Assembly (NCBI GenBank): GCA_002687935.1 | Contig: NZBN01000007.1 | Coordinates: 37,030 to 101,029 of the forward strand | Source of the DNA: Methanobacteriota archaeon | Lineage (GTDB): Archaea > Undinarchaeota > Undinarchaeia > Undinarchaeales > Undinarchaeaceae | Direction of reading: 5' to 3' | DNA: 64,000 bases | Part shown: positions 1,578 through 5,182 of the stretch, one piece after another | Layout of the letters: every line of letters starts with the position of its first letter | How positions within the stretch are numbered: the first letter of the stretch is position 1 | Translations under genes and position numbers: made by a program | The notes under the pieces: generated by a model | Told to the model about the DNA's origin: nothing | Seen by the model: only the letters and a program-made list of their open reading frames with translations | Databases searched by the model: none

Positions 1578-1586
1578 ATTATATAG

Positions 1587-1661
1587 TGCACCCGGAGGGA
1601 TTTGAACCCCCGACTTCTGACTTAGGAGGTCAGCGCCTTATCCAGACTAGGCTACGGGTGC
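1587..1661 (-). tRNA. tRNA-Arg(CCT)
   Basis: Cloverleaf GCACCCG/CGGGTGC, anticodon arm CTGAC-CTCCTAA-GTCAG, T-loop TTCAAAT, A20 in D-loop; no encoded CCA. Confidence 0.95.
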
Positions 1662-1701
1662 AGACACTCCAATCCATCTGTATATTCGTATTTATCTCTT
1701 A

Positions 1702-3435
1702 CTACATACGTTCAGGAATCCGTATTCCGAGCAAGTAGAGGCATCTTCCGAGTGTATTGTAAACAGACTGTACGAGAAGTATCCTCGCCTTCCTCACGTC
1801 CTTATCCGTTTCCTTCAGTACAGGATGCTGAGCATAGAATGCGTTAAATTTTTCCGCCAAGTGTATAGAATAGTTTGCGATTATATCTGGCCTGTAATTC
1901 TTTGAAGCTTCCCTTACAGCCATTGGAAATTTACTAAGGTGCTTTATTATTTCATATTCCTCATCGTTTGGAACCTTCATGTCAACTTTAGCGGGGTCAG
2001 GGAATTTTTTAACATCTTCAAGTATATGCATTGATCTTACCGTGGCATACTGTAGATAAGGTCCCGTTTCTCCTTCAAATTCAAGTGAGCGTTCCCAGTC
2101 AAAGAATATAGTTTTATTATTTCCAATGTTCAGCATCTGGAATTTCATTGCCCCTAAAGATATATCCAATGCTATCTTCCTCTGCATTCTCGGATCTATG
2201 TCAGGATTCCTCAGCATAACTTCCTCAAGCGCCTTTTCGAACATGCGGTTTTTCATTTCCGAGTAAAGTATTGAAGTTCCTTCTCTGGATGACATCTTCC
2301 CGGAAGCAAGTGTAACAAGGTCGTATGGTATGTGTTTGCATTTATCCGCGTTCTTGAATTTCATCTTCTTAAGCACATTAAAGAGCTGCTGGAAGTGAAG
2401 CCTCTGCTCTGAGCCGGTTATGTATATTGACTTGTCAATTCCATAATCTTCAAATTTAGTTTTTGCCAGAGCAAGGTCCTTTGTCGAATACAAAGCAGTT
2501 CCGTCTGAACGAAGAATCAGGAAAATACCGAGCTTCTCCGGTTTTTCCATATTTATGATAATAGCACCGTCACTTTTCTTTGCTATTTTTTCCTTAAGGA
2601 GCTCCTGTACTATCTCCTTCCCTGGCTTTTCCATCTGGCTTTCAAAGAACCACACATCAAAATGAGCGTCCAAATCTTCGTATATCTTATTGAAATCATT
2701 TATAGACCACTGCTTGGTTTCATTCCAGAGTTGCATTAGGTCTCCATCACTTTCGTCCTCGAGATTTCTGAGAACTTCTTCAACTTCTTTCTTATAGTCT
2801 GGATATTGTTCTATTTTTTCACAGGCTTCAGTGTAGAGCTTGCCCAGCCATTCTCCCTTGCTTTCCCGTGGAACTTCCCCTTCGTGGAATTTTCTATAAC
2901 ACCATAGGACCTTTGCTACATGCGCTCCGACATCTCCAGGGTAGTTCGCCTGAACAACTTCATATCCGGACTGCCTTAGTATCCTTGAAAGGCTCTCTCC
3001 TAGGGAAGTTCCTCTCAAATGTCCTATATGGAAAGCTTTGTGCGTATTCGCCTGACTGTATTCAACCATCACTTTCTCTTCCTGCGGAAGGTTTTGTCCA
3101 TAATCAGTTTTTACAGCTTCTTTCAGAACACTTCCCATAAACAAATCTTTCTTGAAGAAGAAATTAACATAGGCTCCTGCAAGCTTAACCTTTGAGCAGG
3201 ACTTCGGTTTTTTGATATTAGCAAGTATCTTTTCCGCAAATTCTCTCGGACTTTTTCTCTTCAGTTTTCCCAGCGGGAAAGAAACACTGCATGCAAGGTC
3301 TCCCATTTTATAACTTGGAGGTTCTTCAATAGTTCTTTCAATTTCCACTTGTGGCTTTAGTTTTAGCTTTTTCAGAACTTCTTTTACTGCTTCTACAACT
3401 TCTTCCCGTGCTTCCATCCAAGGGTCTGGTATCAA
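1702..3435 (-). CDS. argS: arginyl-tRNA synthetase; true start uncertain, may be fused to the upstream Lys-rich ORF
   Basis: HIGH motif (FHIGHLRG), KMSSR, FEGETGPYLQYA and anticodon-binding domain FNAFY. Confidence 0.97.
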   Translation of the reverse strand: MIPDPWMEAREEVVEAVKEVLKKLKLKPQVEIERTIEEPPSYKMGDLACSVSFPLGKLKRKSPREFAEKILANIKKPKSCSKVKLAGAYVNFFFKKDLFMGSVLKEAVKTDYGQNLPQEEKVMVEYSQANTHKAFHIGHLRGTSLGESLSRILRQSGYEVVQANYPGDVGAHVAKVLWCYRKFHEGEVPRESKGEWLGKLYTEACEKIEQYPDYKKEVEEVLRNLEDESDGDLMQLWNETKQWSINDFNKIYEDLDAHFDVWFFESQMEKPGKEIVQELLKEKIAKKSDGAIIINMEKPEKLGIFLILRSDGTALYSTKDLALAKTKFEDYGIDKSIYITGSEQRLHFQQLFNVLKKMKFKNADKCKHIPYDLVTLASGKMSSREGTSILYSEMKNRMFEKALEEVMLRNPDIDPRMQRKIALDISLGAMKFQMLNIGNNKTIFFDWERSLEFEGETGPYLQYATVRSMHILEDVKKFPDPAKVDMKVPNDEEYEIIKHLSKFPMAVREASKNYRPDIIANYSIHLAEKFNAFYAQHPVLKETDKDVRKARILLVQSVYNTLGRCLYLLGIRIPERM

Positions 3436-3740
3436 TATTTCTTCTTTCTCAGGCTGTTTGACAGCTTTCTTGGGCGCCTTTTAGTTGTTTTTTTCTTTCC
3501 CTTAACAGCTTTCTTAACCAGCCTTTTCTTAGAAACTTTAGCTTTCTTCACTGCCTTTTTCTTAACAACTTTCTTCTTCACAGTCTTCCTGTTAACCTTA
3601 GCAACTTTCTTAGAAACTTTAAATTTCTTAACAGCTTTCCGCTTGTCCTTAACAGCCTTTTTAGAAGTCTTTTTCACAGTTTTAGTCTTTTTCACCATTT
3701 TCTTCTTCTTAATGGGGTTTTTCTTGTTTTTTACAGCCAT
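3432..3740 (-). CDS. Lys/Val/Ala-rich histone-H1-like low-complexity ORF; probably the N-terminal extension of ArgRS separated by a 1-nt frame change
   Basis: ATG at 3740 lies 8 nt after tRNA-Arg(TCG). Repeated KKAVK units; the -1 frame after 3480 continues KAPKKAVKQPEKEEIL in frame with argS. Confidence 0.7.
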   Translation of the reverse strand: MAVKNKKNPIKKKKMVKKTKTVKKTSKKAVKDKRKAVKKFKVSKKVAKVNRKTVKKKVVKKKAVKKAKVSKKRLVKKAVKGKKKTTKRRPRKLSNSLRKKKY

Positions 3741-3748
3741 AATTTTTA

Positions 3749-3824
3749 TGGGCCCAACGGGATTTGAACCCGCAATCTCCTGGTCCGAAGCCAAGTGTCA
3801 TAATCCGGGTTAGACCATGGGCCC
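3749..3824 (-). tRNA. tRNA-Arg(TCG)
   Basis: GGGCCCA/TGGGCCC acceptor stem, anticodon loop CTTCGGA, T-loop TTCAAAT. Confidence 0.93.
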
Positions 3825-3846
3825 GCTGTGTATATAGTTTTTTTGA

Positions 3847-4389
3847 TTAAATAGTATTCGCTACTATGCTCAATATCCCACTAAAGTAGTATGTTAGCAA
3901 AAAGTAGTTTCCTATTGTATTAAAGAAACCGAAGGCGATTCGCCGGTCAAGTGGGTCAAAAAATACACGGTTTCTGATGATTGAGAAAAGGACATTTGTG
4001 ATTAATATTATGGACCACAGAGCGAATTGATAAAGGAGATGGGGTGGCGCGAAACTGACCGCAATCACAACACAAAACAGGGCAATCATGTCCATAATCA
4101 CCCATGGTATTTTCTGTATATTTCCAAGAATTTTCCCAGCCGGGTTCAGGAAAATCGTACTCATAACTATGGCATACATCGCTTCTGACAGCCCCAGGGT
4201 TGCGACGGCTGCAATAAGAAAAACGTTGTGAAATTCGAGTTTCAGGTTATCATATATAGAGCTCGACCTACTTGCTATTGTGATAAGACTTACAAGAATG
4301 ACACCTTTCCAAGTTTCTGGATAGAGGAGCATAGGAAGAACCATACAAACTATGATGGTCGTTAGCAGAACCTTTGCTCCAGTTTTCAC
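3847..4389 (-). CDS. hypothetical integral membrane protein (about 6 TM; ECF S-component-like size and topology)
   Basis: 180 aa almost wholly hydrophobic ORF filling the gap between tRNAs. Confidence 0.6.
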   Translation of the reverse strand: MKTGAKVLLTTIIVCMVLPMLLYPETWKGVILVSLITIASRSSSIYDNLKLEFHNVFLIAAVATLGLSEAMYAIVMSTIFLNPAGKILGNIQKIPWVIMDMIALFCVVIAVSFAPPHLLYQFALWSIILITNVLFSIIRNRVFFDPLDRRIAFGFFNTIGNYFLLTYYFSGILSIVANTI

Positions 4390-4468
4390 CGTATTTTGAT
4401 AAACAACATGAATTAAATAATCATCGATAGCAGCAAGCTTAAAATAACAGGCTTCAATATCAAAGTCT

Positions 4469-5098
4469 ATGGGAAAACGGGAGCAGTCTTTTACATTTTT
4501 GAAAAAATCAGGTTCTCTTGGCCTTATAACGGCTGTGTTTTTCCTTCTCGCCGTTTATGGACTTATAGCCTCATCTAATATTCTCTTTATTGCAGGACTT
4601 TTTACAATACTGAGTATTTACAGCAGAATATACTCATGCAAAGCGCCGCTTGACATTTCTGTCATCGGCATCGGCTCAATCTGCATCGCTGTAGTTAGTG
4701 ATGTGTGGCTCGCCGCAATCTTCGGATTTTCTATGTGGCTCATCACAATGATGTGGCAGCCTTATATTGAATTCAGCTACCAAATACCTCACGCCATCGC
4801 TTCATTTATTGTGATGCTATTCTTTCCACTTTTTATTTCATATGCAGGAAAAAACCTGGTTCTTATGGCAGTTTCTTATGCCCTTGTAAAGTTCATAATT
4901 GAATCTATACTTTTCACACCACTCCTTAGGCCCGCCACAATAATTCCTGATTTGATATTTAATCTTCAGGAGCTTCCCTTTACAATATTCTATACGGCCA
5001 TTGTAATGCAGTTTTTCGCCGGTCCAATCTTACTTTCTCTTGGAATTTCTGGCTGGGAAACAGGCTCCTTGTGGTTATTTATAAAAATGATTTTCTAA
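4469..5098 (+). CDS. hypothetical integral membrane protein (6-7 TM)
   Basis: 209 aa hydrophobic ORF divergent from the previous one. Confidence 0.6.
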   Translation: MGKREQSFTFLKKSGSLGLITAVFFLLAVYGLIASSNILFIAGLFTILSIYSRIYSCKAPLDISVIGIGSICIAVVSDVWLAAIFGFSMWLITMMWQPYIEFSYQIPHAIASFIVMLFFPLFISYAGKNLVLMAVSYALVKFIIESILFTPLLRPATIIPDLIFNLQELPFTIFYTAIVMQFFAGPILLSLGISGWETGSLWLFIKMIF

Positions 5099-5107
5099 AT
5101 AAGAAAG

Positions 5108-5182
5108 TGGGCCTGGAGGGATTTGAACCCCCGATCTATTGCTTAGAAGGCAATCGCCTTATCCAGACTAGGCTACAGGCCC
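5108..5182 (-). tRNA. tRNA-Arg(TCT)
   Basis: GGGCCTG/CAGGCCC acceptor stem, anticodon arm ATTGC-CTTCTAA-GCAAT; D and T arms identical to tRNA-Arg(CCT). Confidence 0.95.

What the first reader, a model, noticed from the sequence alone, without database searches (positions are those of the whole stretch)
1702..3740. ArgRS appears to carry a ~100-aa polycationic H1-like N-terminal extension split by one missing base
Seen: the Lys-rich ORF reads ...ACT AAA AGG CGC CCA... and drifts to a stop. One extra A in the A4 run (3479-3482) gives ACT AAA AAG GCG CCC AAG AAA GCT GTC AAA CAG CCT GAG AAA GAA GAA ATA TTG ATA CCA GAC CCT TGG, i.e. TKKAPKKAVKQPEKEEILIPDPW. This keeps the KKAVK repeat and its codon style and is in frame with argS, giving a 679-aa fusion. 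Known: Lys-rich N-terminal appendages act as tRNA-binding domains on some eukaryotic aaRS such as LysRS and AspRS. Inference: an archaeal ArgRS with a eukaryote-like tRNA- or DNA-binding tail. The simplest explanation for the break is a homopolymer sequencing error or a strain mutation.
Basis: partly seen in the sequence, partly recalled or inferred. Interest (0 to 1): 0.7.

Follow-up and report, generated by a model that had tools for sequence, protein, structure and literature searches.

The report
Archaeal ArgRS with polylysine N-terminal tail
The arginyl-tRNA synthetase of a tiny marine archaeon (Candidatus Undinarchaeum) really carries a roughly 105-residue, 45%-lysine disordered N-terminal tail like the tRNA-binding tails of eukaryotic synthetases, and the split seen in this window is one missing A found only in this assembly.

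Summary
On the minus strand, a Lys-rich ORF (3740-3432) and argS (to 1702) are out of frame by one base at the A4 run 3479-3482. Twelve other contigs from twelve separate records of the same population all have A5 at this site and encode one intact 679-aa ORF. Over 22,094 bases the window genome differs from one of them by only one mismatch and this gap. So the break belongs to this assembly alone: a consensus error or a rare variant, not recoding and not two genes.

Same-genus relatives (91% identical core; Ca. Undinarchaeum marinum, 678 aa) and a second Undinarchaeota clade (664 and 720 aa) also carry fused tails. The ArgRS tree places the two clades apart, so at least two gains or losses occurred.

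The tail is 43-46% Lys with net charge +34 to +59. It has no Pfam match and AlphaFold2 predicts it disordered. It changes length by in-frame tandem duplications and is the most Lys-dense segment in the genome.

The most likely function, inferred and not shown, is a non-specific electrostatic tRNA/RNA-binding appendage, analogous to eukaryotic LysRS/AspRS N-extensions. It is a new variant of a known kind and of moderate interest.

The parts
3749..3824 (-). tRNA-Arg(TCG). Its 3' end lies 8 nt upstream of the ATG of the fused argS ORF.
   Evidence: ARAGORN and Rfam tRNA at 60.2 bits. The arrangement and the 8-nt spacer are the same in same-genus G002.
3738..3740 (-). ATG start codon of the full-length (tail-bearing) ArgRS.
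   Evidence: An ATG sits at the homologous place in G002 and in the 678/679-aa database proteins.
3427..3740 (-). Coding region of the polycationic N-terminal tail and its short acidic/Pro linker (PEKEE-ILIP). It is 314 nt here and 315 nt in intact alleles.
   Evidence: The tail is 45% Lys, net charge +46, pI 11.3. AF2 gives pLDDT about 34 and no secondary structure for residues 1-102. There is no Pfam hit. Tandem-repeat periods of 12, 15, 18 and 33 nt are all multiples of 3.
3479..3482 (-). A4 homopolymer, the site of the one-base deletion that splits the ORF in this assembly. All other assemblies have A5.
   Evidence: Alignments. BLAST gap at G000:C7:40507 (window 3478, at the edge of the run) against seven further contigs.
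3481..3483 (-). TAA in the argS frame, made in-frame only by the deletion. It limits where the frames can be joined.
   Evidence: translation (N-N-stop-K-A-P-K-K...).
3432..3435 (-). TTGA overlap. The TGA stop of the shifted Lys-rich frame (3434-3432) overlaps a TTG (3435-3433) in the argS frame.
   Evidence: In G002 the TTG codon is CTA, so it is not a conserved start.
3154..3426 (-). Start of the folded ArgRS: the D-P-W motif and the Arg_tRNA_synt_N (Add1) domain. The internal Met (MEARE) is at 3417-3415.
   Evidence: Pfam PF03485, E 3.3e-17. The first AF2 helix begins at residue 107, in D-P-W. All tail-less orthologs start 1-9 residues before the conserved W.
2095..3111 (-). Class I ArgRS catalytic domain, with an intact HIGH motif.
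   Evidence: Pfam PF00750, E 1.2e-50. The HIGH residues are invariant in alignment A4.
1702..2055 (-). DALR anticodon-binding domain and the stop codon.
   Evidence: Pfam PF05746, E 2e-27.
1586..1661 (-). tRNA-Arg(CCT), 40 nt downstream of the argS stop.
   Evidence: ARAGORN and Rfam at 68.6 bits.
5107..5182 (-). tRNA-Arg(TCT), part of the same cluster of Arg tRNA genes.
   Evidence: ARAGORN.

Best explanation
This is one gene. It encodes the single-copy arginyl-tRNA synthetase of a Candidatus Undinarchaeum (Undinarchaeota, DPANN) population as a 679-residue protein. A roughly 100-residue intrinsically disordered polylysine tail is followed by a short acidic/proline linker, then a canonical ArgRS (Add1 N-domain, class I catalytic domain, DALR anticodon-binding domain). 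In this assembly alone, one A is missing from an A5 run. That artificially splits the gene into a 102-aa Lys-rich ORF and a tail-less argS.

Shown here: the gene structure, its intact state in the population, its conservation in the genus, its presence in a second Undinarchaeota clade, the predicted disorder, and growth of the tail by in-frame tandem duplication.

Inferred here: the function. The tail leaves the enzyme at the N-terminus of the Add1 domain. In solved ArgRS-tRNA complexes that domain contacts the tRNA D-loop at the elbow (established knowledge, recalled from memory; entries 1F7U and 2ZUE). A tail at that position can most plausibly act as a non-specific electrostatic tRNA/RNA-binding arm that raises the capture rate and affinity for tRNA-Arg. 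ArgRS needs bound tRNA even to activate arginine. The tail would then work like the disordered Lys-rich N-extensions of eukaryotic LysRS, AspRS and AsnRS.

Also inferred: the gene is probably co-transcribed with tRNA-Arg(TCG) 8 nt upstream. tRNA 3' processing would then leave a nearly leaderless argS mRNA.
For: Gene structure and the break:
- 12 distinct contigs (NCBI GCA_030746125.1, GCA_002501985.1, GCA_001039965.1; four JGI metagenomes; Logan SRR5036900, ERR599062, SRR10556723; ENA ERZ27245248, ERZ27245235) carry A5 and an uninterrupted ORF.
- Over 22,094 nt the window genome differs from GCA_002501985.1 by 1 mismatch and this 1 gap.
- The 697-aa call of the same ORF is on 16 contigs.

Conservation:
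- G002 (same genus, core 91% identical) has a 660-aa in-frame fusion with the same tRNA and the same 8-nt spacer.
- Codon changes just upstream of the internal Met are synonymous in the argS frame (ATA/ATT, TTG/CTA, CCA/CCT, CCT/CCG, GAG/GAA).
- Ca. Undinarchaeum marinum HIJ99260.1 is 678 aa.
- G004 (720 aa) and P0018 (664 aa), from another clade, carry 144- and 90-residue tails.

Coding signal: the open frame survives in 9 of 100,000 shuffles, the other frames have 6-16 stops, and every tandem-repeat period is a multiple of 3.

Nature of the tail:
- 43-46% Lys, net charge +34 to +59, pI 10.8-11.3.
- pLDDT about 34 with no secondary structure for residues 1-102; the fold starts at D-P-W.
- No Pfam family.
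- It is the most Lys-dense 40-residue window in the genome: 21 Lys, against a 99th percentile of 15.
- Other Lys-rich tails in this genome sit mostly on nucleic-acid-binding proteins: uS3, uL22, TFE-alpha and a Toprim protein.

Analogy: eukaryotic aaRS Lys-rich extensions are disordered, have high pI and bind tRNA non-specifically (PMC6213541; PMC8319005).

Weak support: tail-bearing cores have net charge -2 to +5, against +8 to +23 in 20 of 21 tail-less orthologs.
Against: - No experiment or expression data shows that the tail is translated or that it binds tRNA.
- The tail sequence is poorly conserved and carries no recognisable motif. The class IIb SKxxLKKxxK-type motif, recalled from memory, is absent.
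- Three of the five families in the order manage without a tail, so it is not essential to ArgRS function in this phylum.
- A polycation of this kind would bind DNA, rRNA or any polyanion equally well, so tRNA specificity is not implied.
- An internal Met right after D-P-W in the genus could yield a tail-less isoform.
- Whether A4 is an assembly error or a real rare allele cannot be decided without reads.
Confidence: 0.6

Rival explanations
1. Programmed -1 ribosomal frameshift or 'hungry-codon' recoding at U-AAA-AGG joins the two frames, so that arginine or tRNA-Arg supply controls ArgRS production. An earlier scan note, e1-5505812, proposed this.
For: In this window a -1 shift at ACU-AAA-AGG is the only way to join the frames. 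Two Arg codons follow it. The tRNA reading AGG lies just downstream of argS.
Against: All 12 other contigs of the same population, and every relative, encode the fusion directly in the DNA with A5 or equivalent, so no shift is needed. U-AAA-AGG is not a canonical X-XXY-YYZ slippery heptamer (read from the sequence). The site is not conserved: G002 reads AAA-GCA-GTT-AAG there. A recoding signal present in only one assembly of a 99.99%-identical population is not a programmed feature.
Confidence: 0.02
2. These are two separate genes: a small histone-H1-like basic protein, and a normal-length ArgRS starting at TTG 3435 or ATG 3417.
For: This is how the window reads as deposited. NCBI and JGI gene calls of 571 and 577 aa exist. 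The TTGA stop/start overlap would permit translational coupling.
Against: The JGI contigs behind the 577-aa calls actually carry A5 and an open upstream frame, so those calls are truncated start choices and not real separate genes. No relative has a stand-alone Lys-rich ORF upstream of argS. The TTG is CTA in G002. In two clades the Lys-rich frame always runs into argS without a stop.
Confidence: 0.03
3. The fusion is real, but the tail's role is not tRNA capture. It instead tethers ArgRS to another polyanion: the nucleoid (H1-like DNA binding), the ribosome or rRNA (aminoacyl-tRNA channelling), or acidic membrane or surface components.
For: At 45% Lys and net +46 the tail would bind any nucleic acid. 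Other Lys-rich tails in this genome sit on ribosomal proteins, TFE-alpha and a Toprim protein. Archaeal ArgRS-SerRS-ribosome stalk associations are described in the literature (abstract of PMC10817482).
Against: There is no DNA-binding or ribosome-binding domain. The attachment point on the tRNA-elbow-binding Add1 domain favours tRNA contact. The only experimentally studied Lys-rich aaRS tails act on tRNA (PMC6213541, PMC8319005). None of this excludes the alternatives.
Confidence: 0.2
4. The tail is a nearly neutral low-complexity expansion. It would be produced by replication slippage in A-rich DNA next to the start codon and tolerated rather than selected.
For: Tail length changes fast within the genus (87, 91, 105, 105 residues). 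G002 has a near-perfect (95%) 42-nt tandem duplication. Most families of the order lack a tail. The sequence itself is poorly conserved.
Against: The frame is kept open across all variants despite 6-16 stops in the other frames. Composition (43-46% Lys) and architecture (poly-K, then an acidic/Pro linker, then D-P-W) recur in two clades that the ArgRS tree separates. It is the extreme outlier of the whole genome, not one of many such tracts.
Confidence: 0.15
5. Sub-question on the break itself: the A4 allele is a real, rare strain variant and not a consensus or assembly error. ArgRS core would then be rescued by re-initiation at the TTGA overlap or at the internal AUG.
For: It is the only indel in 22 kb of an otherwise near-perfect assembly, so the assembly is not generally indel-prone. 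The TTGA overlap and the nearby ATG offer a plausible rescue. Tail-less ArgRS works in sister families.
Against: 12 of 12 other contigs have A5. argS is single-copy and essential. Homopolymer length miscalls are a classic consensus error.
Confidence: 0.35

Closest known systems
Lys-rich N-terminal tRNA-interaction extensions of eukaryotic class IIb synthetases (human/hamster LysRS RID, yeast AspRS, AsnRS)
   Same: N-terminal position, high pI, intrinsic disorder, no fixed fold, and fusion to an otherwise complete synthetase. For those proteins, non-specific tRNA binding that raises affinity is documented (PMC6213541; PMC8319005).
   Different: The enzyme is of a different class (class Ia ArgRS, not class IIb) and a different domain of life (DPANN archaeon). 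The literature describes such domains as absent from prokaryotic counterparts. The tail is longer and far denser in Lys (about 100 residues at 45% Lys, against about 65-70 residues in the eukaryotic cases, from memory). The recalled class IIb motif is not found. The origin is independent, and within Undinarchaeota there are probably two origins. No binding data exist.
Canonical archaeal/yeast ArgRS (Pyrococcus horikoshii 2ZUE/2ZUF, yeast 1F7U/1F7V)
   Same: Residues about 106-679 match at E 9e-73 and 1.8e-60. All three Pfam domains pass their thresholds and HIGH is intact. The AF2 core is confident.
   Different: None of these structures has a polycationic N-terminal tail. The Undinarchaeum enzyme adds about 105 residues in front of the Add1 domain.
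Mammalian cytoplasmic ArgRS with an N-terminal extension and two isoforms from alternative initiation (references 59, 60 and 62 in PMC4394549)
   Same: It is an ArgRS with an appended N-terminal extension. A possible second in-frame initiation site (the Met right after D-P-W in the genus) could give a tail-less form.
   Different: The mammalian extension is described as hydrophobic (title of reference 60 in PMC4394549) and, from memory, docks ArgRS protein-to-protein into the multi-synthetase complex as a leucine-zipper-like helix. It is not a polylysine nucleic-acid-binding tail. The internal Met is not conserved in the second Undinarchaeota clade.
Linker histone H1 C-terminal tail and bacterial H1-like Lys/Ala/Pro repeat proteins
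   Same: About 40-45% Lys, disorder, and strong positive charge.
   Different: There is no winged-helix globular domain and no Pfam hit. Val (8-15%) is about as common as Ala (5-12%) and Pro (4-9%). The tail is attached to a synthetase and is not a chromatin protein. The resemblance is compositional only.
Trypanosomatid Lys-rich insertions/extensions in IleRS, GluRS and HisRS
   Same: Lineage-specific Lys-rich add-ons to aaRS of unknown but suspected tRNA-binding function (PMC8319005).
   Different: Those are 24-55 residues at 18-25% Lys, in eukaryotic parasites, and not on ArgRS. The trypanosomatid ArgRS peculiarity is an internal 120-aa insertion.

Membership tests
Arginyl-tRNA synthetase (class Ia) | Arg_tRNA_synt_N + tRNA-synt_1d + DALR_1 domain architecture above Pfam gathering scores | tested here: met
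   PF03485 at 63.3 bits, PF00750 at 172.8 bits and PF05746 at 96 bits, all above their cut-offs.
Arginyl-tRNA synthetase (class Ia) | Intact HIGH signature and conserved catalytic core | tested here: met
   F-H-I-G-H-L-R-G is present, and H238, G240 and H241 are invariant in a 36-sequence alignment. The AF2 core pLDDT is mostly above 90.
Arginyl-tRNA synthetase (class Ia) | Charges tRNA-Arg with arginine | not testable with these tools
   It is the single ArgRS homologue in the genome, so the function is expected. No assay was possible.
Eukaryote-type Lys-rich tRNA-binding appended domain of aaRS | Terminal extension outside the conserved core, with high pI and rich in Lys | tested here: met
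   The tail is 87-144 residues, 43-46% Lys, pI 10.8-11.3. Tail-less orthologs start 1-9 residues before the conserved W.
Eukaryote-type Lys-rich tRNA-binding appended domain of aaRS | Intrinsically disordered in the free state | tested here: met
   AF2 gives pLDDT 32-37 and no DSSP secondary structure for residues 1-102. This is a prediction only.
Eukaryote-type Lys-rich tRNA-binding appended domain of aaRS | Class IIb consensus motif (SKxxLKKxxK type; recalled from memory) | tested here: not met
   A regex search, including a relaxed form, found no match in six tails.
Eukaryote-type Lys-rich tRNA-binding appended domain of aaRS | Non-specific tRNA binding that lowers Km or Kd for tRNA | not testable with these tools
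   This needs EMSA and kinetics with and without the tail.
Linker histone H1 | Globular winged-helix linker-histone domain | tested here: not met
   No Pfam family was found at E up to 0.1 for the 102-aa ORF, and no folded element appears in residues 1-102.
Programmed -1 ribosomal frameshift site | Frameshift requirement conserved in orthologs and other isolates | tested here: not met
   12 of 12 other contigs and all relatives are in frame at the DNA level.
Programmed -1 ribosomal frameshift site | Canonical X-XXY-YYZ slippery heptamer at the only possible shift point | tested here: not met
   The sequence is ACU-AAA-AGG. The upstream A7 run cannot be used because TAA follows it in the -1 frame.

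The most novel reading that the evidence does not exclude
A eukaryote-style disordered polycationic tRNA/RNA-binding appendage has arisen on a prokaryotic class I synthetase, probably twice independently within Undinarchaeota. It may work together with the conserved 'arginine island', in which argS is flanked by all four tRNA-Arg genes and is probably co-transcribed with one of them. The tail could help an ultra-small cell with few tRNAs capture, or even chaperone, newly made tRNA-Arg. That would make it a natural model for how eukaryotic aaRS appended domains first evolved.
Probability: 0.3. Interest if true: 0.6.

Novelty: new variant of a known kind. Interest (0 to 1): 0.42.

Why it matters
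Lys-rich tRNA-binding appendages are treated in the literature as a eukaryotic innovation of aminoacyl-tRNA synthetases and as absent from prokaryotic counterparts. Here an archaeal ArgRS carries an extreme version. It is conserved in a genus, recurs in a second clade, and can be seen growing by in-frame tandem duplication. That gives a simple system for testing how such appendages originate and what they contribute to tRNA capture in minimal cells.

There is also a practical point. The deposited genome splits an essential gene at a one-base homopolymer difference, and public gene calls for the same ORF range over 571, 577, 679 and 697 aa. The annotation of this gene in Undinarchaeota needs correcting.

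Tried and rejected
- Pfam on the 102-aa Lys-rich ORF gave no family.
- The ESM Atlas feature search on the tail gave no usable hit.
- A search for the class IIb aaRS motif in the tails found nothing. Helical hydrophobic-moment analysis gave only a weak, uninformative signal.
- The bacterial sigma-70 promoter and terminator scan does not apply to an archaeon and was not used.
- A library-wide phmmer search over 1.84 billion representatives, plus a K/R-density scan of all 289 ArgRS relatives in hand, found no other poly-K N-terminal ArgRS outside the two Undinarchaeota clades. Only the best 120 and 150 hits were inspected, so this does not show absence elsewhere.
- I looked for remnants of a lost tail upstream of the tail-less sister P0016. 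There is only an 87-nt spacer after an unrelated gene, which is uninformative on gain versus loss. DNA for P0018 could not be fetched.
- Literature searches for an archaeal or DPANN Lys-rich aaRS tail found nothing specific.
- No protein-tRNA complex prediction was attempted, because the complex tool takes no RNA.
Full report
**1. What is in the window**

All features below are on the minus strand.
- A tRNA-Arg(TCG) gene lies at 3824-3749.
- Eight bases later an ATG at 3740 opens a 102-codon frame that is 45% lysine. It ends at TGA 3434-3432.
- The argS frame is offset by one base. It is open from just after a TAA at 3483-3481. It reads K-A-P-K-K-A-V-K-Q-P-E-K-E-E-I-L-I-P-D-P-W-M-E-A-R-E and continues to the stop at 1704-1702.
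- The downstream part is a complete arginyl-tRNA synthetase. Arg_tRNA_synt_N, the class I catalytic domain and the DALR domain all score above the Pfam cut-offs.
One extra A there gives a 679-codon ORF.

**2. Is the break real?**

The predicted 679-aa fusion exists letter for letter in public data as P0004. I fetched the DNA behind it and behind its cluster mates. Twelve distinct contigs from twelve different records carry ACTAAAAAGG (A5) where the window has ACTAAAAGG. The records are:
- NCBI: GCA_030746125.1, GCA_002501985.1, GCA_001039965.1
- JGI: 3300035250, 3300022225, 3300022227, 3300020423
- Logan: SRR5036900, ERR599062, SRR10556723
- ENA: ERZ27245248, ERZ27245235

Over 22,094 bases the window's genome differs from GCA_002501985.1 by one mismatch and one gap, and that gap is this site.

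The 577-aa JGI gene calls looked at first like independent evidence for a split gene. They sit on contigs with A5 and an open upstream frame, so they are simply truncated start choices. The 697-aa calls start too early, inside the tRNA gene.

The split is therefore private to this assembly. Without reads I cannot decide between a consensus error (I estimate about 0.6) and a real rare allele (about 0.35). If the allele is real, the TTGA stop/start overlap at 3435-3432 or the internal ATG at 3417 could still allow the essential, single-copy core to be made.

**3. Is the tail a conserved, translated part of ArgRS?**

The genome belongs to Undinarchaeota, genus Candidatus Undinarchaeum. Cluster mates are named Ca. 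Undinarchaeum marinum, and the next relatives are Naiadarchaeum and Undinarchaeales.

Conservation in the genus:
- The same-genus genome G002 (core 91% identical) has the same tRNA, the same 8-nt spacer, an ATG, and an 87-residue Lys-rich tail in frame with argS, for 660 aa in total.
- Other genus members have proteins of 664 and 678 aa.
- Between the window and G002, codon differences just upstream of the internal Met are synonymous in the argS frame (ATA/ATT, TTG/CTA, CCA/CCT, CCT/CCG, GAG/GAA). The window's TTG is CTA in G002, so it is not a conserved start.

Coding signal:
- Length differences between tails are whole codons once the A is counted: 324 versus 270 nt from the ATG to the internal ATG.
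- All tandem-repeat periods in the tails are multiples of three: 12, 15, 18, 33, 36 and 42 nt.
- The frame is open although the other two frames carry 6-16 stops. Only 9 of 100,000 shuffles of the region stay open.
- Every tail-less ortholog begins 1-9 residues before the conserved W of the D-P-W motif. The first AlphaFold2 helix starts in that motif. The tail is therefore an add-on in front of a conserved N-terminus.

**4. Distribution**
- The order holds 13 genomes in five families. Tails occur in the window's family and in a second family: G004 (720 aa, 144-residue tail), plus a metagenomic relative, P0018 (664 aa).
- The other three families have a tRNA-Arg upstream of argS but no Lys-rich ORF in any frame.
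- A maximum-likelihood ArgRS tree puts the two tail-bearing groups in different well-supported clades. The G004/P0018 pair is sister to a tail-less protein, and Undinarchaeum is sister to the Naiadarchaeum-type clade. At least two changes are needed (quick search, SH-aLRT support only).
- Among 289 ArgRS relatives collected from two very large protein libraries, no other poly-K N-terminus was seen. This covers only the best hits and does not show absence elsewhere.

**5. Nature of the tail**
- It is 43-46% Lys, 8-15% Val, 5-12% Ala, with net charge +34 to +59 and pI about 11. A short acidic/proline linker (PEKEE-type) follows it.
- It has no Pfam family.
- AlphaFold2 with a 36-sequence alignment gives pLDDT about 34 and no secondary structure for residues 1-102. 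The ArgRS body is confident: mean pLDDT 83.5 overall and mostly above 90 in the core.
- It is the most Lys-dense 40-residue window of the whole 0.67-Mb genome, at 21 Lys. The median ORF maximum is 6 and the 99th percentile is 15.
- The next densest tracts sit on uS3, uL22, TFE-alpha, a Toprim protein and FtsY, which are mostly nucleic-acid-binding proteins.
- Tail-bearing ArgRS cores are less basic (net -2 to +5) than 20 of 21 tail-less orthologs (+8 to +23). This could mean charge was relocated to the tail. It rests on only two independent lineages, so it is weak.

**6. Most likely mechanism (inferred)**

The closest solved relatives are the Pyrococcus horikoshii and yeast ArgRS chains. From memory, entries 2ZUE and 1F7U are tRNA-Arg complexes in which the N-terminal Add1 domain contacts the D-loop at the tRNA elbow. 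ArgRS also needs tRNA for arginine activation (title of reference 97 in PMC4394549, and general knowledge).

A flexible arm of about 100 residues and +46 charge leaving the N-terminus of Add1 is well placed to sweep up the tRNA backbone. It could raise association rate and affinity without adding specificity. This is the behaviour documented for the disordered, high-pI Lys-rich N-extensions of eukaryotic synthetases (PMC6213541; PMC8319005).

My estimates are:
- about 0.55 that tRNA/RNA capture is the main role;
- about 0.2 that the tail tethers the enzyme to another polyanion such as DNA, the ribosome or the cell surface;
- about 0.15 that it is a tolerated slippage product.

The gene model itself (one 679-aa protein) I hold at about 0.95.

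**7. Rejected readings**

Programmed -1 or 'hungry-codon' recoding (an earlier scan note, e1-5505812) fails for three reasons:
- The fusion is encoded directly in all other assemblies and in all relatives.
- The site is not conserved.
- U-AAA-AGG is not a canonical slippery heptamer.

'Two genes' fails because no relative has a free-standing Lys-rich ORF and the apparent short gene calls are annotation choices. 'H1-like' is a resemblance in composition only.

**8. Context worth noting**

All four tRNA-Arg genes of the genome (GCG, CCT, TCG, TCT) lie within 6.7 kb around argS. Flanking of argS by tRNA-Arg genes is conserved across the order; one locus has all four within 4.7 kb. Two more distant DPANN relatives lack any tRNA gene near argS.

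The 8-nt gap between tRNA-Arg(TCG) and the argS ATG leaves no room for a separate promoter. Co-transcription, with tRNA 3' processing producing a nearly leaderless mRNA, is the simplest reading. This is an inference.

**9. Verdict**

The frameshift is an ordinary single-assembly defect. The underlying feature is a polylysine, disordered N-terminal tail on an archaeal ArgRS, recurring in two Undinarchaeota clades. It is a new variant of a known kind of appended domain.

The proteins are already in public databases under the plain name arginine--tRNA ligase. I found no paper that discusses the tail; the Undinarchaeota description paper does not mention synthetases at all.

Interest is moderate. 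It would mildly surprise aaRS specialists and offers a tractable model for the origin of appended domains, but its function is untested.

Noticed in passing
window 1586-5182 (tRNA-Arg CCT 1586-1661, TCG 3749-3824, TCT 5107-5182); G000:C7:35479-35554 (GCG, just outside the window); loci L004, L007-L009, L011, L013: All four tRNA-Arg genes of the genome lie on one strand within 6.7 kb around argS. Flanking of argS by tRNA-Arg genes (TCG upstream, CCT downstream, GCG/TCT nearby) is conserved across Undinarchaeales. Locus L008 has all four within 4.7 kb. Two more distant DPANN ArgRS loci (L012, L014) have no tRNA nearby.
   Followed up: partly
window 3741-3748: Only 8 nt separate the 3' end of tRNA-Arg(TCG) from the argS ATG, and the spacer length is the same in same-genus G002. 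A TATA-like TATTTAAT lies about 27 nt upstream of the tRNA 5' end. This suggests a tRNA-argS co-transcript whose tRNA 3' processing yields a nearly leaderless mRNA.
   Followed up: partly
public gene calls for window 1702-3794 (P0125, P0131/P0132, P0004, P0127/P0129/P0130): The same ORF is annotated in public data as 571 aa (start at the internal Met), 577 aa (TTG start, on contigs whose upstream frame is actually open), 679 aa (correct), and 697 aa (start inside the tRNA-Arg gene). These are inconsistent start calls for an essential gene.
   Followed up: yes
G000:C2:26030-27675, C2:18480-19580, C2:37907-38299, C6:64092-65717, C10:37729-38580 (outside the window): Other Lys-rich low-complexity tails in this genome are on uL22 and uS3 (C-terminal), FtsY (N-terminal), a 131-aa protein with no Pfam family, a Toprim-domain protein (C-terminal) and TFE-alpha (N-terminal). 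The lineage appears to decorate nucleic-acid-handling proteins with polycationic tails.
   Followed up: partly
proteins P0004, P0001, P0003, P0002, P0018 versus 21 tail-less Undinarchaeota ArgRS: Tail-bearing ArgRS cores have net charge -2 to +5. Twenty of 21 tail-less orthologs have +8 to +23, with one outlier at -24. This may be charge compensation or relocation, but it rests on only two independent lineages.
   Followed up: partly
P0220 (836 aa, from the representative library): A distant ArgRS relative (38% identity) carries an unrelated, non-Lys-rich N-terminal domain of about 270 residues in front of a full ArgRS. It was not identified.
   Followed up: no
L006:558-744: Rfam finds a 187-nt tRNA match, presumably intron-containing, about 300 nt upstream of the tail-bearing argS of G004. 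ARAGORN did not call it, and its anticodon was not determined.
   Followed up: no
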